From: Elsinoe ampelina
Taxonomy: Eukaryota
Direction: 5' to 3'
NCBI GenBank assembly: GCA_010093995.1
Contig: ML992501.1
Span: forward strand, 200,560-263,407
DNA length: 62,848 nucleotides
Shown piece after piece: positions 1-61,569 of the stretch. Every line of letters starts with the position of its first letter. The stretch's first letter is position 1. A model generated the notes under the pieces. The model was not told where the DNA came from, did no database searches, and was given only the letters and a program-made list of their open reading frames with translations. The position numbers were made by a program, and so were the translations under genes.

Positions 1-2132
1 GGGAATGCCCGGGTCAGCTCTGATGAGAGATACAATGTGTGGTTGTTTGATACTACTACTCTTACTTTTCACTTTTCCTCTTGCTTCTGTGAAGACTTTA
101 CTCCTTCTCTTGCTTTGGTGAAGACTTGCTCCTTCTCCATACTGCCAATGCTTTCTCCTAACTTCCCTTTTCTCCCTATCACGCTTCATGCTCTTTGTTA
201 TCTGCCATGTAGCATTGATCACCATTCAAGCCGGCACAAAGGGCGTGGTCTAGGCGATCTCTCTTTGTCATCTTTTTTTTCCCGCACCTGCTGTTCTTTC
301 TGCTACCCAACGATCTGGTCGATGGCAGGAGGACGCAAGGCGTACTGGAAAGGGAGCTTCCTTGAGAGATTCCGCATAGGCTTGGAAGAACGCGTGTCGG
401 TGAGCAAGTACCGGGTTCGGCTTGTAGGGGCCGAAGCAAGGGGTTGTAAGGCTGACTTCAAGGGTGGGGTGGAGAACTGCAGAGTGAAGAGCTGAATGGT
501 TAGTGATTCTGCTTGCTCTAGTGGCTTCTATCCCCACTGTCTTTCAAGTCTTTGTGGTATCGTTTTAGGCCAGTCTCTTCTTGCTCTGATGCTCAACGGG
601 GTCTGGAAAGCGCCCGAGGCCGCGCTGTTTGTCTTGAAACGCTCTTCTGACGCGTACCTGGAAGGTTCTGCTGTGACTATGGGCTGCATCTGGATGTTGA
701 AATTGTAAATGCGGGTGGTTCGCGATGTCTTTTTAGCCTATGCCTGGGTGCTAAACTCATACTAGGATTGTGTCAGTGGGCGTACGCATTGGTTCTTGCG
801 TCTTGGTCACCATCTACCGCTTTGTAGACGCGTGTATTGGCGACCTGACGTTCAGATTGAATTCTCTTGATGATGTCAGGGAAATCTGCTGTCTTTCTGA
901 TTGCATTGGTGATACCCTGGGAGGGTGGTCTGTTGTCTGATCGTCTGAAGTTGTCATAGCGATGCGTTTCGATGGCCTCGGACGCGAATGGTTGAAGGAA
1001 GGATGGTCTATAGTACTTCCACCCACAGTTGGCAGCGTGTCGGTCTCCGTGATGTCGTGATGATGCGAAGGCTCTTTAGAGGGCCCAGTAGAGGAGCAGT
1101 CCCTGAGGATGTCAGCCATCAAACGACACCTCCGGCAGTACCCTGCCAGCGGTCGCGCCTCCGACGATATGCCCGTCGCTTGTAGCGGCTCTGCGTCTTT
1201 GTATCCGCAGCCTAGACGCCGCCGTAATGCATCCTCTTTGTCATGAATCGTACCTCCTCTTTGTCCGTGATGCTTGACCCAGTCCGTGGCGCCTTCTTGA
1301 AACATCGTAGCATGGTCTGGGTGTGCTGACACTCGTTGACAAGGATCATCTGCTGCTGCAATGGGCCGAAGGTGCAGCAGCTTAGAGTAGCCGATGGTAG
1401 TGCAGAATGGGAGTGGATCGGGCTTAGTCTTGTGTCCTCTGTCGAAGGGGACTGTGCGTGATTTGTGGAAAGGCAGGGCTGGGTGGATCCTGTTGCAGGT
1501 CAGTAGTCGGTGCAAAACAGCAACAGTGACAAGTAGAACCGACGGCCATCATTGATAGGAGCCTGCTCGTAGTCTCGATCTTGAAATCAATGTCATTGGC
1601 ATATACTATCAATGCTGTACTGTGGATATGCTGGTTCATTTGGGGACAGACCCCCTCGCAGATCCACCAGGAGCACTAGACGATGTGGTACAAGTCATTG
1701 ATCCTGCATGATCGCCTCCTGAGCATTTCCCGTGTACAACAGAGCAGCAAGCGACCTGACTACAAAGAGCCCCCTTGTCTCAATGTTCCTCTGCTGTCTT
1801 CATTCCCATCTAACCTCGACGTAATGTGGACAGCATCGACGCGTTCCCCCAACATGGACCTCCAAACACGTCCCGAGGGAGCGTCACATGGAAGAGGGCC
1901 GAGCTTTCCACCCAGCGAGGCTTCCAGAATCACAATAATTGATCTCACTTACGACTCTTCACCTCCTTCTTCACCACCATCAGCACCTTCTTTGTTTCAC
2001 GAACATCAAACCTCTTTCAATATCATCCGCGCAACAAAGACTGCTCGTTCCTTACCAGCTCTCACCATAACAAAGCGACCATCACCAATATCATCACCGT
2101 CGCCGCCACTCACATCTCACTCACACATCACA

Positions 2133-5100
2133 ATGGCACCAAAACCCAAGGTAAAATACGATCCGAAGCTCCTCTTCCAGCAGCATGAGCTCGACAACAT
2201 ATTTCCTACCGGCAGACTGCTCGCTCGCGTCCAAGAAGTCGGCGGCAGTGCAGCCCTTCAGCAATCCCGTGAGGATGTGTTGAGAAATTTCAACCGCGAC
2301 AACCGTGCTGGCATGGAAGTCCTCAACCAGGAGAAGATCGAACGAGACTTGCTGGAGAAAGAAGAAGCAAAGAAGAAGAAAGAAGAAGAGGACGAGCGCA
2401 AGAGGCTCGAGGCTGAAGAGGGCGGCGACAGTAACCCTGTCGTCGACCTCGAGGAAGCCGAAGAGGAGTCCGTCGCGACGCGCACTCGCCGTCGCTCAAC
2501 CAGGGCGGAGACTGCTAGGTATGAGACTCACCTCGACCAAACTCACATGAACATCCTTGCTAATGGTTCAAGCAGTGGCACCCCTGGACCGGACCCTACC
2601 GGCTCAACATTGAGCATGCCAGGTGGTAGGGCCACTGGCACCACCACCTCGGCACGACCGAGCAAGACGTCGACCTCACATGGCGGCGCAACCCCTTCCT
2701 CGCAGAGTACCACGACGCGTAAGTCCAACCCTCCTCCATACCCTTGTGCAACTAAGCAGCTAACATTGTCGCCAGATGGTACCAGACGCCCGACCCCCCG
2801 CTTTCCCCCTCTTCGTGCGCCAACCTCCGCCCCACCTCCCCCCACCACATCCTCTCCCGCCCCTCCTTCAACCTCCTCTCCCGCCCCTTCCACCACCGCT
2901 ACCCCAACGAGTAGCGGTGCTCCTGCCCGCGCACGTGGCCGTCCCCGTGGCACCACTCGTACCGAGCCAAAGTGCCTCAACTGTCAGAAAGACAAGAAGG
3001 GGTGCGACCGCGCCAGACCATGCGCAATGTGTGTGCAGAAGAAGAAGAAAGAGTGCGTTTACCCTGGCGACAGAGAGGGTGACGGAGATGTAGTCATGAC
3101 CGGTGGCGACGACGACGAAGATGACAGGGAGACTCAGACTGGACCTGGCGCTGGAGCTGGATTCTTTGGTGGCCTTGGAGGAGGTTCTGGTAGTTTTGCC
3201 ACTAATGCAGAGGTCCGCCGCTACTCTGCTCCTTTTGGTGAATCTGACCTGCCCTCGAACCCATTGCAACGACGACCCACTATGCCTGATGTCTATGGCA
3301 GCAACGCCCCGTCTGGTAGTAATGCCGTGTTTAGGTCTCGAATGCCTGGTTATGATAACTTTTTTTCGATTCCCGACATAGGCCAAATCAGGGGGACTGA
3401 ACGAGCACCTGACCGTGAGGTCCCTGCCGGGGCGAGACCCGACTATCAGCCCCCGAGGTTCCAAGGTGGCCGCGACCCAAATTTCGGACTTGATGGTGCA
3501 CACGATCTGGGCGGATCTGGATCTCGTGTCGGTCCTCGCCTCAGTTACGATGGTACACTCTACGATCCGAGCGGTACTCAGCGGCGCCCTCAAGTGCCAT
3601 CTACATATGGTGGGCCTCCGTTGGCACCCTGGGAGACGCCGAGCTCCTACGGTTATAGCAGACCAGTCAATACCTCCGACGGAACCCGCAGATCGATTGG
3701 TGGCTATGGACATGACCACACGGGTCGCGGCCGGCCAGATCAAGGCTACAACCATTCCACTGCCAGCACCGGCTATCCACCCGGTAACACAGCATCCAAC
3801 TCAGGCAATCAGTCAAGCTATCGACCCCAACTCTCGACCGCGTCGAATCGGACCAGCCACAACGAGGGTGACAAGAATCCTCGACGTTCGGGACGTGGTA
3901 ACAGTGGTCGTAACAGCGGGAGTGGAAGCCAGGGAGGCGGCGGAAACGGCGGTGGCGACAAAAGAAGGGGCGGAGCAGCTAGTGCCCCCGACGGCGATGG
4001 GGACGACAGCGGTGACGAGAGTTCCGACTCGGCCCTTACTGAAAATTCGGCCCGTACTCCTCCCCCTAAAACGCCAAGTCACAAGACTGGCGAGGACGAG
4101 GATGACGACGAGGACAATGGCGACCAGGACGATGATGACGAGGACGAAGACGACAATCAGGACAACTCCACCGACGCAGCCATCCGGACATATATGAAAC
4201 GCGCCAACCGCATGGAGAACGATCCATCCAAAGAGGCCAGAGGCAAAGCATGTCGATTCTGTCGCGCCGGCAAGAGGCCCGGGTGTACGTGGGATGAGGA
4301 GCATGGCTGTTGCACTCGATGCTGGGCTGCTCATCATGGCGGTGACTGTTTCTACTGGAGAGGGCAACCTGGTCCAGCGAACTTCGCATGCCATAATTGT
4401 CGGAACGGGAGGATCTCAATGGACTGTGACCATGGTCGACCTTGTCGCGCTTGTGTTGAGGCAGGCAAAGCTAATCAATGTTTCTACGATGGCGACGATA
4501 CCGACGAGGACAACGAGCAAGTCAAGAAGGATTATGTCCCCGACCAGAATGGAGGCAGAGATCCCGCTGAACGGGCAGCTGCTCGACGCGCAAAGAAGGC
4601 TGCTGAAGCTGCTGCGGCTGCTGATGAGGACGAAGACGCCCCAAAGGGTCAGCAGAAGCGCAAGAGGGACGCCAACGATGATGCCCAGAAGCCAAAGAAG
4701 AAGAAGACCAAGGCGGTGCACAACGAGGATGACAGCGACGAAGTCCTTCGCGATGCCGACGACGACGACGACGATGATGAAGAGCTGTACAAGCCTGGTC
4801 CGACGCTTTCACGCCGCAAGGGCAATGAGGTCGTGCGACCGACTTCCGTCACTACCACCGCTCCCAAGACCAACAAGACATCGGGTCAGACCAGAAAGAC
4901 AAGCACCGCTTCGCAGACCAACAAGACCTCGGCGCAGTCCAGGAAGACAAGCGCTACTCACGGCACCTCGAATCGTCAAGCCGTACAGACAGGCTTCACT
5001 CCCACCGAGCAAAGCTTCCGCAAGTTGACCATCCAAAGCCCGACTGAGCATCCTGTGGTGCGAATCGGTCGTGGGCCTTTCAATCCGCTGGTCGCCGAGG

Positions 5101-6530
5101 CACAAGCTCTTGCAGACAATATCTCCACTCCATCTGGCGGACCATCTGGCGAACCATCTGGCAAACCATCGGCTTATTCCAGGGGACGATCAAGCCAGAA
5201 GGCTGCTGAACTGCTGTCACCTTTACTCCAGCCAACGAGCCGGCCGAGACCCATCAGTCCCAAGAGCGTGAAAGACACAGCCAAGCACTTCAACGACATC
5301 ACCACAACGTATCTGGCTAGAGCACGCAAGGAGAACGCCGAGCGCTTGGAAAAGGCGAAGGACAACACGATCGAGAAGCAGGACCGCACGCTTCTGGAGG
5401 CCATCTTCTCCGACGCGAGTAGAGCCTCGAGCAACCTCGGCCCAGATGACCCAGAAGATGTTGAGCTACACATCTGCGATGTTGCCGATGCCGATCATCT
5501 GCTTGACCCCAAGAATGACAAGATTCCGAGAGACATTCCATTGCTGGTCCGCGGGGCTCAGATGTTCCGCTTCCGAGACGAAGAGCAATACGGTCGTCCC
5601 ATCGTTCAGTTTCTGAGCACCTTCGGAGATGACGACATGATTCAAGTGCAGGACCCGGGCCGGGCTCAGAATTCAGAGAAGAGGGTGACGGACACCAGCA
5701 TCAAGGCCTTGAGGCAGCGCATCACAGGCGAGGCACAGCGCAGGTTCCCTTACAACGCTTTGGACCTGCCTATCAAGTACGGCAACGCCGGGTTCATTCC
5801 TCCAACCTTCGTCGCCGGCCAGGAAGACGCCTCACTGCTCAACGATGTTGACAATCACATCAAGAGCAACTCGGTAGTGAAAATTGGCTCGAAGATGGTC
5901 GAACGCGGCAGTGAAGTCGCTTCACGCACCAACAGCACCCCTCGCAGCGACGGCATCCAGCCCTTTGCTGACAAACTCATGATCGCTCTCTGCGCAGAAG
6001 GCGGATCATGCACAGCGCCCCATCAAGACGCCTTCGGTTACCGCACCTGGGTGACCGCACAAGACGGCAACCTCCTCTGGCTCTGGCTCCACCGTCCCAC
6101 CGAGGAGCAACAAGTGGCCGTCTTTGACGCCATCGCTGGGACCCGCGAGTTACCGGAGTATCTACCCTGGGTGGGCGTCGTCCTCGAGCCAGATTGGACC
6201 CTCACCATGCCGCCCGGCACGATCCACGCCGTGGTGCGCGTCAAGCAGGAGCACACGTTGCTGTTCGCGGGGCACTACTTGTGTCGGTCCGAGGTGGTGG
6301 AGTGGTTGGATACGGTTATCTTGCAGAAGCAGCATCCGACTAGTCGCAATGAGGACGATGAGGTGGGAGTGCGGCAGTTGGTCAAGGTGGTGAAGGGGAT
6401 GTTGGTAAAGGTCAAGGCTGGGGGATGCTCGGGGTTGAAGGCGGAGGATTTTGGAGGGAAGAAGGTGGTTGAGGAGGCCTTGACGAAGATCAGGACGTTT
6501 GAGGAGATGGATGTCGAGGAGGAGTTGTAG
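2133..6530 (+). CDS. Large chromatin-type protein: AT-hook + three Zn(II)2Cys6-like clusters + C-terminal JmjC-like dioxygenase domain (paralogue A)
   Basis: Open ORF 1683-6530; the likely start is ATG 2133 (cacaATGG context, MAPKPKVKYD). RARGRPRG AT-hook (~2928-2950) lies just before CLNC-x6-C-x5-C-x2-C-x7-C (2973-3056). Two more six-Cys clusters at ~4251-4350 and ~4389-4482. JmjC-like core GSCTAPHQDAFGYRTWV...G..LW.W...LEPDWTLTMPPGTIHAV, with H at 6021, D at 6027 and H at 6225. Confidence 0.85.
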   Translation: MAPKPKVKYDPKLLFQQHELDNIFPTGRLLARVQEVGGSAALQQSREDVLRNFNRDNRAGMEVLNQEKIERDLLEKEEAKKKKEEEDERKRLEAEEGGDSNPVVDLEEAEEESVATRTRRRSTRAETARYETHLDQTHMNILANGSSSGTPGPDPTGSTLSMPGGRATGTTTSARPSKTSTSHGGATPSSQSTTTRKSNPPPYPCATKQLTLSPDGTRRPTPRFPPLRAPTSAPPPPTTSSPAPPSTSSPAPSTTATPTSSGAPARARGRPRGTTRTEPKCLNCQKDKKGCDRARPCAMCVQKKKKECVYPGDREGDGDVVMTGGDDDEDDRETQTGPGAGAGFFGGLGGGSGSFATNAEVRRYSAPFGESDLPSNPLQRRPTMPDVYGSNAPSGSNAVFRSRMPGYDNFFSIPDIGQIRGTERAPDREVPAGARPDYQPPRFQGGRDPNFGLDGAHDLGGSGSRVGPRLSYDGTLYDPSGTQRRPQVPSTYGGPPLAPWETPSSYGYSRPVNTSDGTRRSIGGYGHDHTGRGRPDQGYNHSTASTGYPPGNTASNSGNQSSYRPQLSTASNRTSHNEGDKNPRRSGRGNSGRNSGSGSQGGGGNGGGDKRRGGAASAPDGDGDDSGDESSDSALTENSARTPPPKTPSHKTGEDEDDDEDNGDQDDDDEDEDDNQDNSTDAAIRTYMKRANRMENDPSKEARGKACRFCRAGKRPGCTWDEEHGCCTRCWAAHHGGDCFYWRGQPGPANFACHNCRNGRISMDCDHGRPCRACVEAGKANQCFYDGDDTDEDNEQVKKDYVPDQNGGRDPAERAAARRAKKAAEAAAAADEDEDAPKGQQKRKRDANDDAQKPKKKKTKAVHNEDDSDEVLRDADDDDDDDEELYKPGPTLSRRKGNEVVRPTSVTTTAPKTNKTSGQTRKTSTASQTNKTSAQSRKTSATHGTSNRQAVQTGFTPTEQSFRKLTIQSPTEHPVVRIGRGPFNPLVAEAQALADNISTPSGGPSGEPSGKPSAYSRGRSSQKAAELLSPLLQPTSRPRPISPKSVKDTAKHFNDITTTYLARARKENAERLEKAKDNTIEKQDRTLLEAIFSDASRASSNLGPDDPEDVELHICDVADADHLLDPKNDKIPRDIPLLVRGAQMFRFRDEEQYGRPIVQFLSTFGDDDMIQVQDPGRAQNSEKRVTDTSIKALRQRITGEAQRRFPYNALDLPIKYGNAGFIPPTFVAGQEDASLLNDVDNHIKSNSVVKIGSKMVERGSEVASRTNSTPRSDGIQPFADKLMIALCAEGGSCTAPHQDAFGYRTWVTAQDGNLLWLWLHRPTEEQQVAVFDAIAGTRELPEYLPWVGVVLEPDWTLTMPPGTIHAVVRVKQEHTLLFAGHYLCRSEVVEWLDTVILQKQHPTSRNEDDEVGVRQLVKVVKGMLVKVKAGGCSGLKAEDFGGKKVVEEALTKIRTFEEMDVEEEL

Positions 6531-7964
6531 ATTGAGGGCGACGGTTGCGCATGGGAGGTGGGAAGGATAGACGCATCGTTGTTGCTTTGGAGATTGGCCG
6601 GTAGACTCGAATGTACTTTGCTTGATGCCTACGAAGGCCTTTGTGCCAACCCGTTGCTGTGCAGGTTTGCAAAAGGTATGTCCAAATTGTCGCCTTGACT
6701 CGCGCTCCCAGTGTTGGTGAGATTTCAGCTCCCCAGGTAGGTTCGAGTTTTGCTCACAGGATCGCACTTTTATTTCACCTGCTCTTTCTCCAGTACATCT
6801 GTCGCACAGTAATCCGGTACATGGCTAGCACAATGGGCCTCCCGCTAGCTCTGCCCATCGTACAGGCATGTCGTTACCTGCTTGGGGGATATACAGCATG
6901 GCGCAGTTGAGCGTGTGGGTAGCTTCGAAGCTGTGGGAAGAGGCGTTCGGTTGGTGTCCTTTACAAGAACGATACCTCGCACAGCCTTGGTATGCGATGA
7001 ATGTTCCCTGACCTTGCTGACCTGATCGCATCTGATCGTGGGTCCAGTCGAGCATGGGTCTTGGTAGTTGGTATCCGTGGATGGAGCAGTAGCAAATCGA
7101 GTTTCCGCTATACAAGTTCCCACGCGCGACCACTTCGCACGATCGTAGGCCAATGTCGATATCGTTGTCCGTGGTGATATGGGAACATGTCATGCCGAAG
7201 ATTGCGACTTGGTGCGATCTTGCATTGTGCAGAAGAAGCAAAGATGTGGATGTGAGCGTGATGGTGCCGGACTGGGTGAAGTCTGTCCCAAACCTTGGCG
7301 ATCCGACCCAGGTCTTGACCACATCTCCTTTTTCAACGAACTTGTCACCATGCTTCAAGCGATCTTTCACAATAGATATGATCAATGTTGATGACTTGGT
7401 GTATCTAGATGACGAAGCTTCAATTATCATAGCACAATGGAGGGAGATAGTATGGAGCTAGTTCTTGGACCTTCGACTGAGCAGACAAGCCTAAGCGATT
7501 CTCCAACCCCTTGCAACTGTGCTCCCGTTTCCTGTTCCATAGCAAAGTCGCAGCTCTCGCACTAGTCTGGGCAGTATGAGACCGAGCCTCACGAGTGCCT
7601 TGCGAATGTGCTCTCCTCCGACTGCATCGCTTACCAAGGGTTCAGGATGACCTTGCGTCCTCCCCAGAATGGACCTTGTGCCTCTACTCTATCGCCAGCA
7701 ACTGACACACCAGGTAACCTCATTGGCCCAAGCCAGATAATGATATGAGCCATGTTTCTTCAAACGATGAAGCATATACATGTCGAAGCTCTGGACAAAG
7801 AATGCTAGAAGTGATGACACGACACAGAACAAAGACTTATCTGGTCATGGCCGGATGCGGCCCAGCCTGAGCATAACAATGACCTACCTTGTAACGATGT
7901 CTGAAAAATATTCCTACCTCAGTCGCCTTCCTTCCTCGGGCTTGCTCTGTCATACGTTGAGACG

Positions 7965-9956
7965 ATGACTGGTCGAAGACGATCTTCCCAACCTACCACT
8001 CCTGCTCGTTCAACCAGGAGGGTTAACAGAGAGCCACAAGTAGACACGCATGTCGGACGACGAAATACTAGAAGTAGCAGCCGGCACGAACCTATTGTTA
8101 TATCAGATGACGAAGGTGAGTACAACCAGGCTCTCGACACTCCGCAACAGGCCGCCTTCGAACGTGCAGTAAGCGAGCTGAGCAACGTCTCTCTGCACTC
8201 CCCAGCGCTGGAAAGGAATCGACGCCGAATGGCCGGAGACGGCGCTGTAGATGAAGATTCTGAGCTCTCTCCTGTCAGTCCGCGCACATCGACGCTCCGC
8301 AGCTCAGTACGTCGATCGCAGTTGCGGGACAGACACCACCAAGCTGCGAGCCGCATGGAAGAGGACGAGCCCCAGACCGGACGGAGACAGCTGAAGCGCA
8401 GGCGGGAGGACACTAGTGAAGAGCCTGAGGAAGGCGAATGGCGCGTCCATATGCGTCACAGAAGGAGGCGAATGCTCCCCCATCCACCTGAGATAGAGAC
8501 CGACTTGGACTCCGCAGGTGAGCCGGAAGCCGATGAAGGTCCCCGCCGTTCTCCTCGAGATCAAGGCACAACACTCTTCGAAGGACGAGATGCATTTGCC
8601 TTCCTCGTCGAGCGCCAAGCTACTCTCCAGAGCTACCTCCGTGCCGCCATCCTGGAGAACACGGCGAGGTACAACCGGATCGAGAGTGATGAGTCCACCT
8701 ACGAGCGCTGGACCCGGAAAATGATTGGGGAACTACTACCACACTGCCACTTCCCAGTCACCAATCTCGACACCGAAAGGGCTTGGGCCGATGTTGAGCT
8801 TTTTGTTGGCAACAATGCCGATGTGAAAGATATGCTCAGCACGACAAACCCGGTCCCGAGAGGTATACCGCTGTTGATTCAAGGAGCTCAGAAATATCCT
8901 TTCGACGATGAGTTCGGTGCCAGTCCTCTTGAGCAGTTCCTCGGCGAATTCCAAGACAGAATGGAAGTGCAAGTCCAGAACCTTGGCAGGAAGTACTGGC
9001 ATTCTTCTTTCGAGACTTTGCACATGAGGGAGTTCCGTCGCCATATACTTGGCACCAGGCGTATTCGAGGGAGGACTCTTGAAGCCCTCGACCTGCCATT
9101 CATTACTGGTGGAGCAGATCTTGCTGTGCCCGACTTCCTAAAGACATATCGCGATGCCTGGTTCCTGCATGACATTGATGCTCACATCAATACGCATGGC
9201 CAAATCTGGTATCCGAATGAGATAGAGCCGAGATGGGAAGGTTCGGTGGTGGCTTCTCGTGTGAGTCTCGGTACTAACCCACGATCTGATAAGATTCAGA
9301 TTTGGGGCGACAAGAATAAATTCGCGCTGGCCGCAGACGGAGGAGCTGTTACGGGCGTTCATGAGCATGCTCTTGGTATGGGAACTTGGGTCACAGTCTG
9401 CGAAGGTTCTGTTCTCTGGTGCTGGCTGAATCCTTCCGAAGTCACAGAGGAACAGAAGGTTTCTGTGTACGACACCATCGACAGACATGGTCGGCCGCTT
9501 CGTCGTGACCTGCCATGGCGAGCTGTTATCTTACAGCCAGGTGACACCTTTGTCATGTTCCCAGGTACAATGCATGCTGTGGTGAGAACAAAGACTGAAA
9601 GGTCGCTGATGTTTTCGGGTCATTTCCTCCTTCGAAGCTCGCTCTCGACATGGATCGACGTTGTCATGCTTCAGCTACTGCACAAGGGTGCTTGCAATGA
9701 AGGTCCAGGGGACCGAGCAAGACAAGTGTTGACGATCGTGTGGGAAATCCTAGAACAAGCCCTTGACAATCATGCAGGTGGTCTGAGAGCTGAAGACTTC
9801 GGCGACACAGCAGATGTCCGATCGACATTGGTGAAGCTCAATGATGCTTTCCAGCTGATTGATGAGCTGGATGCAGCGAGCGAGTCGGCTGATTCAGAGC
9901 AGCCGAGAGAAGATCCCAACGAGATGGTGGATTTCATTACATCCAGTTCAGAATAG
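7965..9956 (+). CDS. JmjC-like domain protein, paralogue B (HxH...H triad)
   Basis: 663-aa ORF with an Arg-rich disordered N-terminus. The C-terminal ~400 aa is collinear with paralogue A (PRGIPLLIQGA, QVQNLG, ALDLP, GSVVASR, PRSD). Core is GAVTGVHEHALGMGTWV...LQPGDTFVMFPGTMHAV, with H at 9360, H at 9366 and H at 9573. Confidence 0.85.
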   Translation: MTGRRRSSQPTTPARSTRRVNREPQVDTHVGRRNTRSSSRHEPIVISDDEGEYNQALDTPQQAAFERAVSELSNVSLHSPALERNRRRMAGDGAVDEDSELSPVSPRTSTLRSSVRRSQLRDRHHQAASRMEEDEPQTGRRQLKRRREDTSEEPEEGEWRVHMRHRRRRMLPHPPEIETDLDSAGEPEADEGPRRSPRDQGTTLFEGRDAFAFLVERQATLQSYLRAAILENTARYNRIESDESTYERWTRKMIGELLPHCHFPVTNLDTERAWADVELFVGNNADVKDMLSTTNPVPRGIPLLIQGAQKYPFDDEFGASPLEQFLGEFQDRMEVQVQNLGRKYWHSSFETLHMREFRRHILGTRRIRGRTLEALDLPFITGGADLAVPDFLKTYRDAWFLHDIDAHINTHGQIWYPNEIEPRWEGSVVASRVSLGTNPRSDKIQIWGDKNKFALAADGGAVTGVHEHALGMGTWVTVCEGSVLWCWLNPSEVTEEQKVSVYDTIDRHGRPLRRDLPWRAVILQPGDTFVMFPGTMHAVVRTKTERSLMFSGHFLLRSSLSTWIDVVMLQLLHKGACNEGPGDRARQVLTIVWEILEQALDNHAGGLRAEDFGDTADVRSTLVKLNDAFQLIDELDAASESADSEQPREDPNEMVDFITSSSE

Positions 9957-10632
9957 ATTAGTTGCTGTGAATCTGTACTTCCAGCTCTTGACATTCCCAC
10001 CCCAGGCAGTCTTTACAGGCTATGATCTTCCATGACGAGAGAAGCGACCCGGTCGAGCTGCGAACTTCGCCAGCCAAGCCGTGTGGCCAATCAGCTTCCT
10101 TCCGTCGGCCAGACAATGGACAAAGCCAAGCCGCATTGTTGCATCTAGGAGCCGCGATGAGCCCGTTTTGTTATCCTTGGCAGTACTTCCAGGGTCCTTC
10201 GATGCTAGATGTCAAGGCCCAGTAGGCAACGCGCGCCCCAACCCTCGACTGCTAGACTTCTCCTTCACCAGCTTCCCCTCGCCTTGATCACCTTCATCTT
10301 CTCTTCCAGCTAGAAACTCCCTCCGAAGGCCAGCATATCAATAAGCCTACCGAAGAACAAGCCGATCGTCTTGATGCTCGCTGCTGAACATCGCTCGATC
10401 AACCTGCAGCCAGATAGTACCCTACACAACCTCTTCTTCGCAGTCGCCGCTCGAGACCTTACGATCCAGTGAGCGCGTTACACGAGCTTGCCCATCAAGA
10501 ACAGACTGCAATCGCCTAAACCTTCCCGTCTCCTTCGCGTCCCGTCGCTGTCAATCGCAGCCATTCACGCGATGGGTGTTTGACGTCCTCGACTGTCCAT
10601 CACCACGAACAAGACATCCAACGGAGATCGTC

Positions 10633-13068
10633 ATGAGTAACAGACCATCACTGGCGCGCACTGCGCATGCACGCCACCCCCTGCCAGAGACTCAGTACCC
10701 TAGCTCGAGAGGGGATGGTGCAGCTGCCAACCCCGCACATAGACTCGACGACATTAGCAGCCGCAAGCGCTCAGCCGACCATTTGTCTGCAGAAGAGTCT
10801 CCGACCCCTCGTGTTAATCGATTGAGCCGGCAGCCTGTCAACGAGCATCTCAGCACGACTTCAAACGCTACTCGCAACCAAGCGCATACCAATGCTGCCG
10901 AGGCGGGTCCGAGAGGGCAAGGTCTGATAGGAGTCACGCGCTCCTACCAGCAGGACGAACATATCAACGAAATTCCACCACCAACACGCCCCAACAAGAG
11001 ACGCAGGGTCGATCTTGGCCGTCAGAGCGGGGAAGAGAGACCGATGACAGGCGATCTGGCCATCAGATCAAGCCCCGTCACGCCAGACACACCTGTAGCA
11101 GCACGAGTGACTATCGGTCCAAGATCCAACGACCGACAGATGAGCACGTCGACACGCCACAGCGATGGTCTTCTGCTGGCCCGTACCCACCCAAATCCAG
11201 AGAAAGCCGACCCCGAGGGAATATCCAGTTCTGGCGGCCCTCGCGGATCGTACAGGCGAGAACGTAACGCGGCTCTTCCAATGCCACCTCCTGCCAGGCC
11301 CAGGCGCAGCAACAATGTTCCTTCTCGCGTGGCCCGTGAGACTCCAAACATCAAAATTGAGGATGACACGACGTCGGCTCGCGGCGTCGGAAATCCCGCC
11401 ACCAGCTCCCAAACAGTACCAGGCGATTCGAGTAGGGCGCCCATCCAGAATGCCGCACCAGTGAGGTCCAGCTCGACCCGCTCAGGTCCCAACCAGGCTA
11501 CCTCGACTGGTAGGACTTCTCGCAGCAGCGCCACTGCACGCATCAAGCTGGAGGATAACGGCAGTGATCGACCCATCCTCCGCGACTCGAGATTCGAGTC
11601 TGTCTCTCGTGGGGAAGCTGGTACACTGCTTCAGGAGAGCAAGAGGTGTCTTGGGTATTACCTCGAGAAGATCACTGGAGAGAACACAAGAAAGTCGTTG
11701 AACGTCAGGACCGCGGCAACAGACAACGAGAGCCCGACCCCACAAGACACTCGCCCTGGTGCTCGCGAATGGTTCATCCGGAAGGCGTTGAAGACGATCC
11801 TCGTCGTGGTCCAAGATCCCATCACCAATCTCGACGAGCACGAGTCCTTGGAGAACGTCGAGCTCTACTTCTGCAAAAGCGACGCAGAAGCCACCGTCGT
11901 GAGCAAGGGCCAACTCGAGGGTCTCGCAAAAGGCATCCCGCTCATCATCCGCGACGCCACGGATTACAAATTCGAGGATTATGCAACCGCCGGCGATCCC
12001 ATCACGCAGTACCTCCACACCTTCTTCCCTGACATGAGGATCCAGGTGCAGGATCTCGAGCAGCCATGGTGGGCCGAGTCCACGGTCCAGATTCAGACAA
12101 GTGAGCTGCTCGATCGAGTCAATCGCAGCAGGCCTTCACGGAAGCAATATCACGCCCTGGACTTGCGCTTGGACGATGGTGATGCCGCGGCGACAGTGCC
12201 GAGGTTCCTTAGAAAGGACAGGGATACGTGGTGGTACAATGACCTCGACTCCCATATCAAGAGCCATGGGATTGGCAGGTTTCAAGGCATGGGTGGTGCG
12301 CACCGTCCGGTGCTTGAGGGCAGTCAGGTGGCATCCCGGAGCGGCCACGGCGTGTTGCCTCGCGCCGATGGCCTGGTCGCTTTCAACGAGAAGTGGCGCT
12401 ACGGGATGGTAGCGACAGGTGGCTGCGTTACCGCGCCATCGGAGGACTCGTTCGGATCATACTCGCACATCACGGTCCACCAGGGTAGTGTCCTTCTCTG
12501 CTGGCTTTCCGTGGCCCATACGACTGATGAGCAGAAGGACCATGTCTACAATGCCACCACGGAGGGTGCGCCAATCGACCTCAACCTCCCGTGGAGAGGC
12601 GTTGTGTTGAAGCCTGGAGATACCTTTGTCATGGCGCCGAGCACGACTTACGCCACCATTCGCGCTGAGGACGAGAGTACTCTGTGCTTCGGTGGCCAAT
12701 TCATGCGTCGCTCGGGGCTCGAGTCCTGGATCAAGGTGCTGAATCGCCAGTGGGGCCACCACAATGCTCAGAACGAGTACGAAGGATTTTCGGCGGACGG
12801 ACTACTCTGCCTGGCCAAGGAGGTCCTCGCAAAGGCCGGTCGTAATATGTCTGACAGTGGATTGACGGTGGATCATTTCGGCGGATTTGAGCATTTGATA
12901 CACCTTCTGCGCGAGGTGATGAAGTTGCGTGAGAAGAAGTCTTGTCCGATGTTGCAGGCAACCAGGATCTATTTGATAGAGCTGGCATTCAGTGGTAGAT
13001 GGAGAGCAATTCTGTTGAATGGGACAGCCAACCACGTTCTGCTTGATACAGCCGGCATTCAGTGGTAG
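10633..13068 (+). CDS. JmjC-like domain protein, paralogue C (metal ligands degenerate, SxD...Y; probable pseudoenzyme)
   Basis: ORF 10576-13068; first in-frame ATG at 10633 (MSNRPS). Same collinear blocks (KGIPLIIRDA, IQVQDLE, YHALDLR, GSQVASR, PRADG). Core is GCVTAPSEDSFGSY...LKPGDTFVMAPSTTYATIR, with S at 12439, D at 12445 and Y at 12649. The extreme C-terminus is uncertain because it overlaps a 70-bp duplication. Confidence 0.8.
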   Translation: MSNRPSLARTAHARHPLPETQYPSSRGDGAAANPAHRLDDISSRKRSADHLSAEESPTPRVNRLSRQPVNEHLSTTSNATRNQAHTNAAEAGPRGQGLIGVTRSYQQDEHINEIPPPTRPNKRRRVDLGRQSGEERPMTGDLAIRSSPVTPDTPVAARVTIGPRSNDRQMSTSTRHSDGLLLARTHPNPEKADPEGISSSGGPRGSYRRERNAALPMPPPARPRRSNNVPSRVARETPNIKIEDDTTSARGVGNPATSSQTVPGDSSRAPIQNAAPVRSSSTRSGPNQATSTGRTSRSSATARIKLEDNGSDRPILRDSRFESVSRGEAGTLLQESKRCLGYYLEKITGENTRKSLNVRTAATDNESPTPQDTRPGAREWFIRKALKTILVVVQDPITNLDEHESLENVELYFCKSDAEATVVSKGQLEGLAKGIPLIIRDATDYKFEDYATAGDPITQYLHTFFPDMRIQVQDLEQPWWAESTVQIQTSELLDRVNRSRPSRKQYHALDLRLDDGDAAATVPRFLRKDRDTWWYNDLDSHIKSHGIGRFQGMGGAHRPVLEGSQVASRSGHGVLPRADGLVAFNEKWRYGMVATGGCVTAPSEDSFGSYSHITVHQGSVLLCWLSVAHTTDEQKDHVYNATTEGAPIDLNLPWRGVVLKPGDTFVMAPSTTYATIRAEDESTLCFGGQFMRRSGLESWIKVLNRQWGHHNAQNEYEGFSADGLLCLAKEVLAKAGRNMSDSGLTVDHFGGFEHLIHLLREVMKLREKKSCPMLQATRIYLIELAFSGRWRAILLNGTANHVLLDTAGIQW

Positions 13069-13098
13069 ACCGAGAGCGTTCTTGTTTGGTGGGACAGC
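12973..13098. repeat. Diverged tandem duplication, period 70 bp
   Basis: ttgatagagctggcattcagtggtagatggagagc...gggacagc (12973-13028) vs ttgatacagccggcattcagtggtagaccgagagc...gggacagc (13043-13098). Confidence 0.8.
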
Positions 13099-13864
13099 GA
13101 GGAGTGGTTTTGATTCGAGTCCGAGAAGTTGTATGCTAGCGGTCGAGTAGATCTTTGAGAGAGCAGAGAAAGCATAGATAACCATAACATACTTTCGAAC
13201 GAATTCCTCTGATCCCGCTGCGGTATCCATCTCCACCTGGGCAGTGATGAATCATCCAGGTACCTGGCTTCAATTTCGCCACAGTCTGCAGCACAGCTAT
13301 GGGAGTGTCCGAATATGTCGAGACGAGTTCGAGTTACCTCAAAGCGGTTCCGAGAAGGTCACCATCTCAGATCTATGCTATTTCCAGGTGATACGTTGTA
13401 GGTAGCCCCGCTGGAGGCTTTCTGACGAGTCATCTCAAGGCTCGGCAGGACGTTCGATGTACAACCATACATCTGCTGATCATCTTCCGACCACTCAAAT
13501 CTGGCACAAAACATGACGTCGTCGTGGGTTGCAGTATATTGCAATCGCACACAAGGCGAAATAGATAAGCAAATGAAGGTGTGAGGTTCAGCTCCAAATT
13601 TCGACGTCAGTCGACCTCGGCAAATGCTCTCTCACACCACACGCCAGCCCGTTGGCCGCACCTCGACTATTCAGATCTCCACCTGCTCAAAGAGAGTATG
13701 CCAAAGCCGGTACTTCAGCGCAGCGTGACGCTGTCACGTCATACATTGGGTGACACAGAGCATGATAACAAGACAATCAATATACACCCAAACGCTGTAC
13801 AGATATGCTACTCCTCCACATCCTACCCACACATCTAAACCACTCCCCTCTCTTATACTCCAGT

Positions 13865-16800: not shown

Positions 16801-16966
16801 CTTTATAAGGAGTGGAAGATGCGAGAGGATCGTGCTCGGTCAGCGATTCGAAGGACGAACGCGACGAATGCGACATGTCGAACGTGTGCGACCTGGATTC
16901 GAGGGAATATGTCTCTTCTGGTGAGGGTGTACGGGAAGTAGAGTGGAGTTCATAGGACTCGGGCAT
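13865..16966 (-). CDS. Glycoside hydrolase family 3 beta-glucosidase with N-terminal type II membrane anchor (BglE-like)
   Basis: 1033-aa intronless ORF with GH3 motifs LCLQDGPLGLR, AKHYIANEQE, MCSYN, GFQGFVQSDW (nucleophile D) and PRYEFGHGLSY, plus a C-terminal FnIII-like region (VQMY...LRNFDK...LSYWD). Hydrophobic segment FCCLVTLACFGALFLVLSGGGYY follows a cytoplasmic N-terminus. Confidence 0.93.
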   Translation of the reverse strand: MPESYELHSTSRTPSPEETYSLESRSHTFDMSHSSRSSFESLTEHDPLASSTPYKDKDGYNSKASLLGLFDTEKLSSYRSSPSFRRPFLSCYPSKFCCLVTLACFGALFLVLSGGGYYTVTTLAVPLDGQSPPWYPAPRGGQDGAWGESFRKASDLVRQMTLVEKVNITTGIGWMMGPCVGNTGPVPRLKFPSLCLQDGPLGLRFTDYTSAFPAGITVGATWNRTAMYERGRAHAKEAKAKGINVILGPSMGPLGKFPAGGRNFEGFGSDPVLQGVGAEMTIRGIQSQGVIATAKHYIANEQEHYRQSWEWGTPNAISSNIDDRTLHEMYAWPFADSIRAGVGSVMCSYNMVNNSYACQNSKLLNGILKDELGFQGFVQSDWLAQRSGVASALAGLDMTMPGDGLTWMNGESLWGKELTKAVLNGTVPVERLDDMVLRIVAAWYQMGQDNQDEWPYENKTLPNFSSWTDEENGLLYPGSSDQTTGKVNWFVKAQANHWKIARQVAKEGIVLVKNEEFMLPMHKDGFEMTRSPDRKLRLGIFGEDAFDNPKGPNACKDRACNEYTLASGWGSGAVEFPYLISPATAIKRTVRNDSVDFFEVPSNELTAELDATAQRCDICMVFISADAGEGFVAWKDVKGDRNDLQPQKGGDKLVQQVASKCGNGGQGPVIVVIHSVGPVILEQFIDLPNIKAVVIAHLPGQESGNALAEVLYGDYSPSGKLPYTIARKAADYGPNSTILYSSKALVPQQNFSDGIFLDYRHFDRHNITPRYEFGHGLSYTRFHLSNLQLSSLIPAREPFPAPRPPPGTVPPVDRRVPLANSSVVPDGFRRIHKYIYPYLDHLEDAKPGKPYPYPHGYSTMAHASPAGGGQGGNPDLYKPLALVKCDIENIGTFPGAAVVQMYITFPPNITNSLGEHVPMPPRVLRNFDKIHLGLKDYGPERLEARKKHVSFELTRRDLSYWDIGVQNWVLPKGRFAVWVGESSRDIKQEMAGWLPLPDYEVVKGEEESGEWEGRFWAVGIEGEGRRERVETTG

Positions 16967-59770: not shown

Positions 59771-59912
59771 TGTTGTAATGGAAGGCTGGTACAGCTTCTC
59801 TGGTACTGAAGAACTGGTACTGATGAGTCAGCGCACGCACAGTAGATAAATCGGTTATTGTAACTCTCTGAATAAAACACACATCTCTCGATCCGATTTG
59901 CTAGTTATAACA
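59771..59912 (+). repeat. 5' LTR of Ty1/copia element (142 bp)
   Basis: Starts TGTTGTAA and ends TTATAACA (an inverted terminal repeat with one C>T). Contains AATAAA and is followed immediately by the copia-type PBS GGTTATAAGCC (59913-59923; RIP-altered GGTTATGAGCC). Confidence 0.75.
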
Positions 59913-61521: not shown

Positions 61522-61569
61522 NNNNNNNNNNNNNNNNNNNNNNNNNNNNNNNNNNNNNNNNNNNNNNNN
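61522..61569. other. Assembly gap (N run)
   Basis: Run of n characters inside the RIP-mutated element. Confidence 0.99.

What the first reader, a model, noticed from the sequence alone, without database searches (positions are those of the whole stretch)
2133..13068. Tandem trio of diverged JmjC-like paralogues with three different metal-binding triads (HxD..H / HxH..H / SxD..Y)
Seen: three adjacent, same-strand, apparently intronless genes share a collinear ~400-aa C-terminal module (IPLLxxGA, P..Q.L..F....QVQ, ALDL, GSxVASR, PRxD, G..T..hxd..G, L.PG.T..M.P.T.hA, NE), while their disordered N-termini are unrelated. The facial triad is canonical in A (H-Q-D...H), all-His in B (H-E-H...H) and lost in C (S-E-D...Y). 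All three ORFs remain open despite strong protein divergence, which points to an old, maintained duplication rather than decay. Established: JmjC enzymes use HxD/E..H, and non-canonical JmjC proteins such as S. pombe Epe1 (Tyr at the distal ligand) act in heterochromatin boundary control. Inference: a co-located module of a DNA-targeted enzyme, an altered-chemistry enzyme and a pseudoenzyme regulator or scaffold, possibly a chromatin/DNA-modifying or anti-silencing system.
Basis: partly seen in the sequence, partly recalled or inferred. Interest (0 to 1): 0.85.

Follow-up and report, generated by a model that had tools for sequence, protein, structure and literature searches.

The report
Three diverged JmjC-like genes in tandem
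Three neighbouring fungal genes encode old, diverged copies of a histone-demethylase-like (JmjC) domain: one looks catalytically intact and is fused to zinc-cluster DNA-binding motifs, one has an all-histidine metal site, and one has lost its metal site yet is still conserved.

Summary
Three same-strand ORFs (1683/2133-6530, 7965-9956, 10633-13068) share a collinear ~400-aa C-terminal module, 32-38% identical. Their metal triads are HQD..H, HEH..H and SED..Y.

Pfam sees nothing in them. A 44-sequence profile hits solved KDM7/KDM2A/PHF8/PHF2 JmjC cores (E 8e-12 to 1e-7). AF2 models of A and C (pLDDT 90 and 82) align to KDM7A/PHF2/PHF8 at Z 26-27.

The trio belongs to a 10-row clade whose five source-named members are Elsinoë/Sphaceloma proteins. 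That clade sits inside a 333-cluster family whose nearest Atlas clusters are mostly Ascomycota and are auto-named "JmjC domain-containing". The duplication is old: the AU test rejects a recent one, p 3e-5. The odd triads of B and C recur in their E. batatas orthologues. C's domain is 88% conserved against 60% for its N-terminus.

A carries three Zn2Cys6-like clusters, two above Pfam's cut-off.

The whole family lacks the Lys/Tyr that anchor 2OG in KDM2A and has a near-invariant Arg instead.

No evidence was obtained for a hetero-complex, for expression, or for conserved linkage. This is a new variant of a known kind, of moderate interest.

The parts
1683..6530 (+). Gene A. This is the longest ORF, 1615 codons. 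The likely start is 2133 (Met151) or 1824 (Met48). It consists of a long disordered N-terminus with Zn2Cys6-like clusters and a C-terminal JmjC-like module.
2973..3056 (+). A, Zn2Cys6 cluster 1 (aa 431-458, CX2CX6CX5CX2CX7C).
   Evidence: Regex match. The excised segment scores 22.6 bits on Pfam Zn_clus against a cut-off of 21. It is homologous to the Pfam-positive clusters of P0006 and P0007.
4251..4349 (+). A, Cys-rich cluster 2 (aa 857-889). It has six-Cys spacing but is not recognised by Pfam.
4389..4481 (+). A, Zn2Cys6 cluster 3 (aa 903-933).
   Evidence: The excised segment scores 23.1 bits on Pfam Zn_clus against a cut-off of 21. It is homologous to the Pfam-positive cluster of P0009.
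5313..6527 (+). A, JmjC plus helical (KDM2/7-type) module, aa 1211-1615. Key residues: triad H1447 (6021-6023), D1449 (6027-6029), H1515 (6225-6227); family Arg R1519; His H1531.
   Evidence: AF2 pLDDT 89.9. Foldseek E 2e-15. VIA Z 26.3 to 3kv9. Codons.
7965..9956 (+). Gene B, 663 codons. It has an Arg-rich disordered N-terminus (about 225 aa) and a JmjC-like module from about nt 8637. The triad is all-His: H466 (9360-9362), H468 (9366-9368), H537 (9573-9575).
   Evidence: The orthologue fragment P0008 keeps HEH..H.
10633..13068 (+). Gene C, 811 codons. It has a disordered N-terminus (about 356 aa) and a JmjC-like module at about nt 11701-12942. The site is degenerate: S603 (12439-12441), D605 (12445-12447), Y673 (12649-12651), and Q689 (12697-12699) in place of the family His.
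   Evidence: AF2 pLDDT 82.4. VIA Z 26.9.
12955..13094 (+). Diverged 70-nt tandem duplication across the 3' end of C (12955-13024 and 13025-13094, 77% identical). The ORF crosses copy 1 in a frame other than that of the orthologue's tail. It ends in copy 2 in the ancestral frame (..AGIQW*).
   Evidence: An identical contig from another sample of the same organism label covers 12601-13521.

Best explanation
The three genes are old tandem paralogues. They belong to a subclade whose only source-named members are Elsinoë/Sphaceloma proteins. That subclade lies within a large, Pfam-invisible family of JmjC-fold proteins whose nearest Atlas clusters are mostly Ascomycota. The catalytic core has the KDM2/KDM7/PHF8/PHF2 architecture: a DSBH followed by a helical domain.

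Shown:
- the fold;
- the family membership by profile;
- the three different metal triads and their retention in the sister species;
- the age of the duplication;
- the stronger constraint on the C module than on its tail;
- the Zn2Cys6 clusters of A.

Inferred:
- A is an active Fe(II)/2-oxoglutarate oxygenase. It is most likely a protein (histone-lysine) demethylase or hydroxylase, brought to specific DNA sites by its own Zn2Cys6 clusters.
- The family anchors the C5 carboxylate of 2OG with the conserved Thr (H1-3) and a near-invariant Arg four residues after the distal His. This would replace the Lys/Tyr pair used by KDM2A.
- B has an HxH..H site and keeps the Arg and the extra His. It either binds metal with altered reactivity or has lost turnover.
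- C has lost two metal ligands and a third invariant His, so it cannot bind Fe(II). It survives as a constrained pseudoenzyme, a reader, competitor or scaffold that uses the old substrate groove.
- All three carry KRRR/KKKK-type basic runs and are probably nuclear.
- Whether they act together is open.
For: Fold and family
- Profile of 44 family sequences against PDB: ceKDM7A 7.8e-12, KDM2A 1.9e-11, PHF2/PHF8 about 2.5e-8, KDM7 about 1e-7. The HxD and distal His are aligned.
- AF2 model of A: pLDDT 89.9, pTM 0.89. AF2 model of C: 82.4, 0.83.
- Foldseek best hits are ceKDM7A, PHF2, KIAA1718, PHF8 and KDM2A, E 2e-15 to 7e-12.
- VIA Z is 26.3 for A (3kv9, 318 aligned, rmsd 4.0) and 26.9 for C (327 aligned, rmsd 4.5). 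KDM2A scores Z 22-23.5. The next JmjC groups score Z 17-18.4.

Family size and residues
- 333 representative clusters at E<=1e-3, 207 at <=1e-10.
- Of the 152 rows that cover the site, 144 have HxD..H.
- Conserved positions out of 152: Thr(H1-3) 147, Arg(H2+4) 151, His(H2+16) 146.
- Tyr at H1+10 occurs in 0 of 152 rows. Lys at H1+17 occurs in 0 of 152, and at H1+16 in 5 of 152.
- In KDM2A, T209, Y222 and K229 bind the 2OG C5 carboxylate, and N298 pairs with D214 (passages of PMC11168414).

Evolution
- Careful tree of 23 rows: the 10-row clade has support 100/100. B+P0008+P0069 has 100/95. C pairs with P0005. B and C are sister at 87/70 (not starred).
- The AU test rejects a clade of A, B and C with only their closest orthologues (p 2.8e-5).
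- Stem lengths are 1.48 for C and 0.48 for B. Tip paths are similar: A-P0004 0.09, B-P0008 0.11, C-P0005 0.12.
- Orthologue identity for C: domain 88.2% (343 of 389), N-terminus 60.1% (172 of 286). For A: 91.4% against 82.8%.
- Orthologues keep HEH..H and SED..Y plus Q.

DNA-binding part of A
- Regex finds three clusters in each of A, P0004, P0007 and P0009, and one in P0006. It finds them in only those 4 of the 150 relatives.
- Pfam Zn_clus is found in P0006, P0007 and P0009.
- It is also found in excised A clusters 1 and 3, at 22.6 and 23.1 bits against a cut-off of 21.
Against: - No Pfam family matches A, B or C as whole proteins, even at E<=1. Only 1 of the 70 relatives scanned passes the JmjC cut-off.
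- The Lys and Tyr that hold 2OG in KDM2A (and Y307 in Epe1) are absent from A too. So 2OG use is not shown. The role of the Arg is inferred from alignment and strand topology alone, because model coordinates could not be inspected.
- B's sister-species record is only a 254-aa fragment with a 13-aa gap over the PRSD motif. That could be a bad gene model or could be decay.
- C's last ~45 residues are remodelled by a frame change plus a 70-nt duplication.
- No run on record as RNA holds the locus, so transcription is unproven.
- No DNA of relatives could be fetched, so there is no dN/dS and no synteny.
- Substrate and activity are wholly untested.
Confidence: 0.6

Rival explanations
1. The trio is one functional module: A is the DNA-targeted enzyme, B an altered-chemistry enzyme and C a pseudoenzyme regulator. 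They work together, possibly as a hetero-complex, in anti-silencing or chromatin-boundary control. This would resemble Epe1, or Neurospora DMM-1 with its DNA-binding partner.
For: - The genes are adjacent, on the same strand, and of old origin, yet still in tandem here.
- All three modules are constrained.
- The structurally nearest solved proteins are chromatin demethylases, including PHF2. From recall, PHF2 has Tyr at the distal ligand, as C and Epe1 do.
- Epe1 acts non-enzymatically through its JmjC domain. Neither Epe1 nor DMM-1 shows demethylase activity (passages of PMC7192584, and PMC9023284).
- A carries a conserved [PV]x[VI]DL plus acidic motif (aa 252-256) in 4 of the 5 A-like proteins. 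It resembles an HP1- or SUMO-binding motif.
Against: - The E. batatas orthologues of A and C carry locus tags 003538 and 002790. Both records show the same longest-contig length, 2,708,330. If tags follow gene order, the genes are not neighbours there.
- The more distant named species show only A-like proteins among the cluster representatives, plus one B-like fragment of unknown source.
- Epe1's 2OG-site Tyr (H1+10) is absent from this family, and C, unlike Epe1, also lacks the proximal His.
- There is no co-expression or interaction evidence of any kind.
Confidence: 0.15
2. B and C are relics. They would be duplicates that lost catalysis and are drifting towards pseudogenes. The open frames would be a temporary state, and only A would be functional.
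For: - B's and C's metal sites are non-canonical, and C lost a third invariant His.
- The stem branches are long, 0.48 and 1.48.
- B's sister-species record is a 254-aa fragment with an internal gap.
- C's 3' tail is frame-shifted and duplicated.
- Degenerate triads also occur in four other family clusters: P0095, P0124, P0129 and P0148.
Against: - Both frames are open over 663 and 811 codons (chance about 1e-12 to 1e-14 by my own estimate).
- The duplication predates the split from the E. fawcettii line (AU p 2.8e-5), so neutral copies should long since have been broken.
- Recent divergence of the B and C modules (0.11 and 0.12) is close to that of A (0.09).
- The C module is 88% conserved against 60% for its own N-terminus.
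- The same odd residues are fixed in both species.
- The AF2 model of C is confident.
Confidence: 0.1
3. The family is not a histone demethylase family at all. It would be a JmjC-fold hydroxylase or binder of some non-histone target, or it would use no 2OG. In that case the KDM2/7 likeness reflects shared ancestry of the fold only. This rival overlaps with the best explanation on everything except substrate.
For: - The 2OG-anchoring Lys/Tyr of KDM2A are replaced family-wide. Asn298 of KDM2A, which contacts the substrate, is His here.
- Sequence identity to solved KDMs is only 11-17%.
- Relatives carry no PHD, CXXC, F-box or other chromatin-reader domain. The 70 scanned gave only Zn_clus, in 3.
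Against: - KDM2/7-type cores stand 8-9 Z units above all other JmjC groups, and the match includes the C-terminal helical domain.
- Fusion to a DNA-binding domain, together with basic runs, suggests chromatin as the workplace.
Confidence: 0.3

Closest known systems
KDM7 / PHF8 / PHF2 / KDM2 (JHDM1-type) JmjC histone demethylases
   Same: - The same catalytic-core architecture, a DSBH plus a following helical domain. VIA Z is 26-27 over 306-338 aligned residues for KDM7A/PHF2/PHF8 and 22-23.5 for KDM2A.
- Profile E-values of 8e-12 to 1e-7.
- The HxD..H triad and the Thr three residues before the first His are aligned and conserved.
   Different: - Identity is 11-17%.
- There is no Pfam JmjC or JHD hit.
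- The 2OG-binding Tyr (KDM2A Y222) and Lys (K229) are absent from the whole family. Asn298 is replaced by His, and there is an extra near-invariant Arg at H2+4.
- There are no PHD, CXXC or F-box modules. A has Zn2Cys6 clusters instead.
- B and C have non-canonical triads.
S. pombe Epe1 and Neurospora DMM-1 (JmjC proteins that limit heterochromatin spreading)
   Same: - They are fungal JmjC proteins with long disordered parts.
- Epe1 has Tyr in place of the distal His, as C does (passages of PMC7192584).
- Neither Epe1 nor DMM-1 shows demethylase activity in vitro (passages of PMC9023284). This makes them a precedent for a non-catalytic JmjC function.
- DMM-1 has cysteine-rich domains. From recall of Honda et al. 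2010, which is not held, its partner DMM-2 is a Zn2Cys6 protein.
   Different: - Epe1 keeps the proximal His (H297) and the 2OG-site Tyr (Y307), and both are needed for function. C lacks that His, and the whole family lacks that Tyr.
- Direct sequence comparison with Epe1 or DMM-1 could not be made, because no tool supplied their sequences.
- HP1 dependence is untested.
Fungal Zn(II)2Cys6 transcription factors (Pfam PF00172)
   Same: A and its orthologues carry CX2CX6CX5CX2CX6-8C clusters. Two of them score above Pfam's cut-off when excised. The source records name the orthologues 'Zn(2)-C6 fungal-type domain-containing' or 'UGA3'.
   Different: - There are three clusters per protein, spread through a disordered region, rather than one at the N-terminus.
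- No fungal-TF middle homology region was found.
- The C-terminus is an oxygenase-fold module.
3-His metal sites of cupin-fold oxygenases
   Same: B's HxH..H resembles the 3-His motifs reviewed for atypical non-haem Fe(II) centres. For PMC4019311 I saw only the search listing and the start of the abstract.
   Different: Those enzymes are not JmjC/2OG enzymes. I know of no characterised JmjC protein with HxH..H (recall). One literature search on this was made, and it is not exhaustive.

Membership tests
JmjC domain, KDM2/7 (JHDM1-type) subfamily | Double-stranded beta-helix core plus C-terminal helical domain, closest in structure to KDM2/7 members | tested here: met
   Models of A and C score Z 26.3 and 26.9 to KIAA1718/PHF2/PHF8 and 22-23.5 to KDM2A. 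Other JmjC groups score at most 18.4. Foldseek E is 2e-15.
JmjC domain, KDM2/7 (JHDM1-type) subfamily | Significant sequence-profile relationship to known members | tested here: met
   Family profile against PDB gives ceKDM7A 7.8e-12 and KDM2A 1.9e-11. The 3-sequence profile alone gave only E 0.02.
JmjC domain, KDM2/7 (JHDM1-type) subfamily | Match to the curated Pfam models (JmjC PF02373, JHD PF17811) | tested here: not met
   A, B and C matched no family at E<=1. Of 70 relatives, 1 passes the JmjC cut-off and 4 give sub-threshold JmjC_2 hits.
JmjC domain, KDM2/7 (JHDM1-type) subfamily | Fe(II) facial triad HxD/E...H | tested here: inconclusive
   Met in A (HQD..H) and in 144 of 152 family rows. 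Not met in B (HEH..H) or C (SED..Y). Ligand geometry could not be inspected, because no model coordinates were available.
JmjC domain, KDM2/7 (JHDM1-type) subfamily | 2OG C5-carboxylate anchors: Thr (KDM2A T209), Tyr (Y222) and Lys (K229) | tested here: not met
   Thr is kept in 147 of 152 rows. Tyr at H1+10 occurs in 0 of 152. Lys at H1+17 occurs in 0 of 152 and at H1+16 in 5 of 152. A, B and C have none. The KDM2A residues come from passages of PMC11168414.
JmjC domain, KDM2/7 (JHDM1-type) subfamily | 2OG-dependent demethylation of methyl-lysine on histones | not testable with these tools
   This needs enzyme assays.
Epe1/DMM-1-type anti-silencing JmjC proteins | JmjC with proximal His and 2OG-site Tyr retained and distal His replaced by Tyr (Epe1 H297, Y307, Y370) | tested here: not met
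   C has the distal Tyr but Ser in place of the proximal His. The family has I/L/V at the Y307-equivalent position.
Epe1/DMM-1-type anti-silencing JmjC proteins | HP1-dependent recruitment to heterochromatin edges | not testable with these tools
   There is only a PxVxL-like motif in A (aa 252-256 PVVDL), semi-conserved in 4 of 5 A-like proteins. This is a lead, not a test.
Fungal Zn(II)2Cys6 DNA-binding domain (PF00172) | Six-Cys pattern CX2CX6CX5-12CX2CX6-8C and a Pfam match above the cut-off | tested here: met
   A has three regex clusters. Excised clusters 1 and 3 score 22.6 and 23.1 bits against a cut-off of 21, and cluster 2 does not match. The full-length protein gave no hit. Orthologues P0006, P0007 and P0009 match as whole proteins. 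B and C have no such cluster.

The most novel reading that the evidence does not exclude
A would be a self-targeting chromatin enzyme: three Zn2Cys6 DNA-binding clusters fused to a KDM2/7-fold oxygenase. In effect it would be a one-polypeptide counterpart of the Neurospora DMM-1/DMM-2 pair. Its all-His paralogue (B) and dead paralogue (C) would tune or oppose it at the same sites, giving a sequence-directed anti-silencing system. Separately, the whole family would bind 2-oxoglutarate in a new way, through an invariant Arg on the strand of the distal His in place of the canonical Lys/Tyr.
Probability: 0.12. Interest if true: 0.7.

Novelty: new variant of a known kind. Interest (0 to 1): 0.45.

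Why it matters
JmjC proteins are central chromatin regulators, and non-catalytic ones such as Epe1 and DMM-1 (and PHF2, from recall) are still poorly understood.

This locus offers a natural series within one lineage: an intact site, a 3-His site and a dead site on the same scaffold. All three appear constrained. The intact copy is fused to sequence-specific DNA-binding clusters.

The family behind it (333 clusters at 50% identity) is missed by Pfam. It lacks the canonical 2OG anchors and has an invariant Arg instead. It may therefore show a new cofactor-binding solution in the JmjC fold, and it means that Pfam-based inventories of fungal JmjC proteins would miss it.

The practical reach is limited. 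The trio itself is so far seen only next to source-named Elsinoë/Sphaceloma proteins, and no function is known.

Tried and rejected
- **Complex prediction.** A module plus C module gave 'no answer', with scores 0.00 and 0.00. This is no evidence either way.
- **Expression.** The look-up of sequencing runs listed no holder on record as RNA. I laid four contig sets.
  - X3 has the same organism label but another sample, and its kind is only guessed to be RNA. It gives identical pieces over parts of A, B and C, and also across the B-C spacer (9595-10681). No joints look like introns. It may be DNA.
  - X5 (kind also guessed) has identical 238-nt and 214-nt pieces in A and at the 5' end of B.
  - None of this shows or excludes transcription. 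Uncovered parts prove nothing.
- **Relatives' DNA, for dN/dS and synteny.**
  - With A1, 338 pattern matches were found and none was confirmed.
  - No whole genome is held for the window.
- **Word-index search with B** found nothing. Its only close relatives are shorter than the length window.
- **Honda et al. 2010** (DMM complex) is not held.
- **Literature.**
  - 'Elsinoe' + 'JmjC' gave 1 irrelevant paper.
  - 'JmjC' + 'Zn2Cys6' + 'fungal' gave 12 papers, none on such a fusion judging by title and abstract start.
  - 'PHF2' + 'Y321' gave nothing useful.
  - So 'not in print' rests on these three searches only.
- **Mobile element or RIP relic?** I considered and rejected this for the trio. 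There are no flanking repeats, and its RIP indices are normal (0.50 and 1.24), unlike those of the AT-rich block at the window's end.
Full report
**1. What is in the sequence**

Reading with the standard code, three long ORFs lie head to tail on the + strand:
- A: 1683-6530, 1615 codons.
- B: 7965-9956, 663 codons.
- C: 10633-13068, 811 codons.

By my own rough estimate of stop frequency at this G+C, open frames of 663 and 811 codons have chance probabilities of about 4e-12 and 1e-14.

The last ~400-440 residues of the three proteins align collinearly. BLASTP gives 33-37% identity at E 1e-52 to 1e-71.

The N-terminal parts are unrelated, low-complexity and rich in S, T, P, G and R.

A six-frame scan of all 62.8 kb with the family HMM finds just these three copies. 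Each is one uninterrupted match, so no intron is needed inside the module.

- A: H1447-Q-D1449 ... H1515.
- B: H466-E-H468 ... H537.
- C: S603-E-D605 ... Y673.

The E. batatas model begins at the residue aligned with Met48 (nt 1824). The true start is therefore open.

**2. What the module is**

Pfam finds nothing in any of the three whole proteins, even at E<=1. A profile of the three alone only grazes KDM2A (E 0.02), although the HxD and distal His are aligned.

An exhaustive HMMER search of 1.84 billion cluster representatives found 333 relatives at E<=1e-3, 207 at <=1e-10 and 15 at <=1e-30.

A profile was built from the three modules plus 41 of the 150 listed relatives. I chose the shorter proteins so that the alignment stayed clean (alignment A2). 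It hits solved JmjC cores clearly:
- ceKDM7A 7.8e-12;
- KDM2A 1.9e-11;
- PHF2 and PHF8 about 2.5e-8;
- KDM7 about 1e-7.

AlphaFold2 on that alignment gives a confident model of the A module (pLDDT 89.9, pTM 0.89). The C module gives pLDDT 82.4 and pTM 0.83, with one disordered loop and a disordered tail.

Foldseek's best matches for A are ceKDM7A, PHF2, KIAA1718, PHF8 and KDM2A, with E 2e-15 to 7e-12.

| Comparison (VIA-align re-alignment) | A model | C model |
|---|---|---|
| Best hit, 3kv9 | Z 26.3, 318 aligned, rmsd 4.0 | Z 26.9, 327 aligned, rmsd 4.5 |
| PHF2 and PHF8 | tied within 1 Z | tied within 1 Z |
| KDM2A | Z 22-23.5 (both models) | Z 22-23.5 (both models) |
| All other JmjC groups (JMJD6, KDM6, KDM4, JMJD1C, JMJD5, FIH) | Z up to 17.1 | Z up to 18.4 |

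The alignments run to the end of the module. They therefore include the helical domain that follows the DSBH in KDM2/7 enzymes.

The ESM Atlas places B's module and a distant relative (P0011) next to clusters that are mostly Ascomycota. These clusters are auto-named 'JmjC domain-containing protein' and carry no common Pfam family.

The fold claim is therefore confirmed.

**3. A family-level peculiarity**

I counted residues in the 152 family rows that cover the active site. These are rows of an hmmsearch alignment of the 153 stored proteins; 55 further rows cover only the N-terminal half.

| Position | Count of 152 | Source |
|---|---|---|
| HxD..H triad | 144 | |
| Thr three residues before the first His | 147 | |
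| Arg four residues after the distal His | 151 | |
| His sixteen residues after the distal His (GGH) | 146 | |
| Tyr at H1+10 (I, L or V in 147) | 0 | |
| Lys at H1+17 | 0 | |
| Lys at H1+16 | 5 | |

H1+16 and H1+17 are the two positions to which the KDM7 and KDM2A lysines align.

In KDM2A the C5 carboxylate of 2OG is held by T209, Y222 and K229, and N298 (of GGNFL) pairs with D214 and the substrate (passages of PMC11168414). In Epe1 the 2OG-site residue is Y307, ten residues after H297 (passages of PMC7192584).

This family, A included, keeps the Thr but not the Tyr or Lys. It has His where KDM2A has N298.

My inference is as follows. The distal-His strand and the Lys-bearing strand are antiparallel neighbours in the minor sheet of the DSBH. 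The Arg at H2+4 therefore lies beside the place of the missing Lys. It is the obvious candidate to hold the 2OG carboxylate. I could not check this, because model coordinates are not exposed.

**4. Who the relatives are, and how old the copies are**

Each copy has a close orthologue:
- A-P0004, 89% (module 91.4%);
- B-P0008, 87-91%, but P0008 is a 254-aa fragment;
- C-P0005, 79% by BLAST with gaps and 88.2% over aligned module columns.

The sources name the relatives as follows:
- P0004 and P0005 are Elsinoë batatas proteins, KVT40_003538 and KVT40_002790.
- UniRef calls P0004 a Zn(2)-C6 fungal-type domain-containing protein and P0005 a JmjC domain-containing protein.
- The further A-like proteins are P0006 (E. 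fawcettii, 56%), P0007 (E. australis, 45%) and P0009 (Sphaceloma murrayae, 42%, named 'UGA3').

A quick tree of 61 rows used 60 of the 97 rows that span at least 300 profile positions, plus P0008. It puts the trio, their orthologues and the A-like proteins in one clade (SH-aLRT 100) on a long branch of 2.32.

A careful tree of 23 rows used that clade, the fragment P0069 and 13 outgroup rows picked from the top hits. It gives:
- clade support 100/100;
- B+P0008+P0069 at 100/95;
- C+P0005 at 100/100;
- B-line and C-line as sisters at 87/70 (not starred).

The AU test rejects a tree in which A, B and C with only their closest orthologues form a clade that excludes P0006, P0007 and P0009 (delta lnL 58.2, p 2.8e-5). 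The duplications therefore predate the split of the A lineage among these species.

Branch lengths add to this. The C stem is 1.48 and the B stem 0.48 substitutions per site. The recent paths between the two sister species are alike: A 0.09, B 0.11, C 0.12. A burst of change was followed by constraint similar to that on the intact copy.

The same pattern shows within C. Its module is 88.2% identical to the orthologue (343 of 389 columns) and its disordered N-terminus 60.1% (172 of 286). For A the figures are 91.4% and 82.8%.

The orthologues keep exactly HEH..H and SED..Y, and C's H-to-Q at the GGH position.

Four other family clusters have degenerate triads (RDH, QAY, RDY, QSY). Loss of the site therefore recurs in this family.

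**5. The rest of A**

A regular expression for the six-Cys pattern finds three clusters in A, at aa 431, 857 and 903. It finds three each in P0004, P0007 and P0009, and one in P0006. It finds them in no other of the 150 relatives, and none in B, C or P0005.

Pfam Zn_clus matches P0006, P0007 and P0009 as whole proteins. When the segments of A are excised, clusters 1 and 3 score 22.6 and 23.1 bits against a cut-off of 21. Cluster 2 does not match.

The clusters are the best-conserved islands of the N-terminal 1200 residues.

A also has KKKK/KRKR runs, and B and C have KRRR runs. A short [PV]x[VI]DL motif followed by acidic residues (A aa 252-256) is shared by 4 of the 5 A-like proteins. It resembles HP1- or SUMO-binding motifs. 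That is a lead only.

**6. What I think it does**

Shown:
- a KDM2/7-type JmjC core in three old, constrained tandem paralogues with three different metal sites;
- Zn2Cys6 clusters on the intact copy.

Inferred:
- A is an Fe(II)/2OG oxygenase delivered to DNA sites by its own zinc clusters. It most likely acts on histone or other chromatin-protein lysines.
- B either works with a 3-His site or has lost turnover.
- C cannot bind iron and persists as a pseudoenzyme that still uses the fold's binding surface.

Precedent for non-catalytic JmjC function comes from Epe1 and DMM-1 (passages).

I put 0.6 on this package. The structural and evolutionary half is near certain. The mechanistic half is perhaps even odds.

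**7.

Nothing I could run links the three functionally.

The locus tags of the E. batatas orthologues of A and C differ by 748, and both records show the same longest-contig length. If tags follow gene order, the genes are far apart there. That would fit the frequent intrachromosomal reshuffling known in Dothideomycetes (recalled). This is a hint and not a synteny test.

The more distant named species contribute only A-like representatives, plus one B-like fragment of unknown origin (P0069, 55% to B over 109 residues). But clustering at 50% identity, and missing gene models, could hide others.

**8. Signs of decay, told fully**

- P0008 is a fragment with a 13-aa gap across the conserved PRSD motif. 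P0005 lacks 26 residues that include the IPLL motif. These may be gene-model errors or real lesions.
- In the window, C's last ~45 residues differ from P0005. The frame departs from the orthologue's after '..LREK'. It crosses the first copy of a 70-nt diverged tandem duplication (12955-13024 / 13025-13094, 77%) out of the ancestral frame. It ends in the second copy in the ancestral frame, re-creating '..AGIQW*'.
- A contig from another sample of the same organism label is identical over 12601-13521. This is therefore not an assembly slip. It lies beyond the confidently folded part.

**9. Limits**

- There is no RNA evidence, no DNA of relatives (so no dN/dS and no synteny) and no coordinates.
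- Honda et al. 2010 is not held.
- Statements about PHF2's Tyr ligand, DMM-2's zinc cluster and mesosynteny are recalled, not tested.
- Literature absence rests on the searches only.

**10. Verdict**

It is a new variant of a known kind. The family is uncharacterised, invisible to Pfam, and has an unusual cofactor pocket. Within it, one locus offers a natural series of an intact, a 3-His and a dead site.

Interest: 0.45.

Noticed in passing
window 59900-62848: An AT-rich block (G+C 22-33%) runs to the end of the window and has a strong RIP signature. TpA/ApT is 1.81 and (CpA+TpG)/(ApC+GpT) is 0.24, against 0.53 and 1.28 for the rest of the window. The genome therefore appears to have undergone repeat-induced point mutation, which makes surviving tandem paralogues notable. 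C's His-to-Tyr change (CAC to TAC) is a CpA-to-TpA change, the type RIP favours. That link is speculation.
   Followed up: partly
window 12955-13094: There is a 70-nt diverged tandem duplication at the 3' end of gene C (77% identity). Because the period is 3n+1, the second copy restores the ancestral C-terminal frame after a frame change upstream.
   Followed up: partly
window 2436-2450 (A aa 252-256): The motif PVVDL followed by an acidic run aligns with VPIDL and VMIDL in two distant A-like proteins. It resembles an HP1 chromoshadow-binding or SUMO-interaction motif.
   Followed up: partly
window 13865-16966 (-), 19947-22328 (-), 28214-28891 (-), 32804-34876 (+), 38990-40468 (-), 41431-43089 (+), 49628-51091 (+): The neighbours are ordinary housekeeping or metabolic genes by Pfam: a GH3 beta-glucosidase-like protein, a GMC oxidoreductase, a shugoshin C-terminus, exportin CRM1 (a fragment of a spliced gene), a fasciclin protein, a PLP-dependent decarboxylase and an acyl-CoA oxidase/dehydrogenase. 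Nothing chromatin-related lies next to the trio except shugoshin, about 15 kb away.
   Followed up: no
window 9508-9557 and 12584-12633: B and C still share 76% DNA identity over 50 nt, at the LPWRxVxLxPGDTFVM motif just before the distal ligand. This is the only residual DNA-level similarity among the copies.
   Followed up: no
window 6017-6223 and 10106-10456: A run labelled with a different organism (X4, organism B) holds contigs identical to the window at these two places. The second lies in the B-C intergenic spacer. Elsewhere that run matches only low-complexity acidic stretches. The cause could be a mislabel, a mixed sample or a very close relative. I did not resolve it.
   Followed up: no
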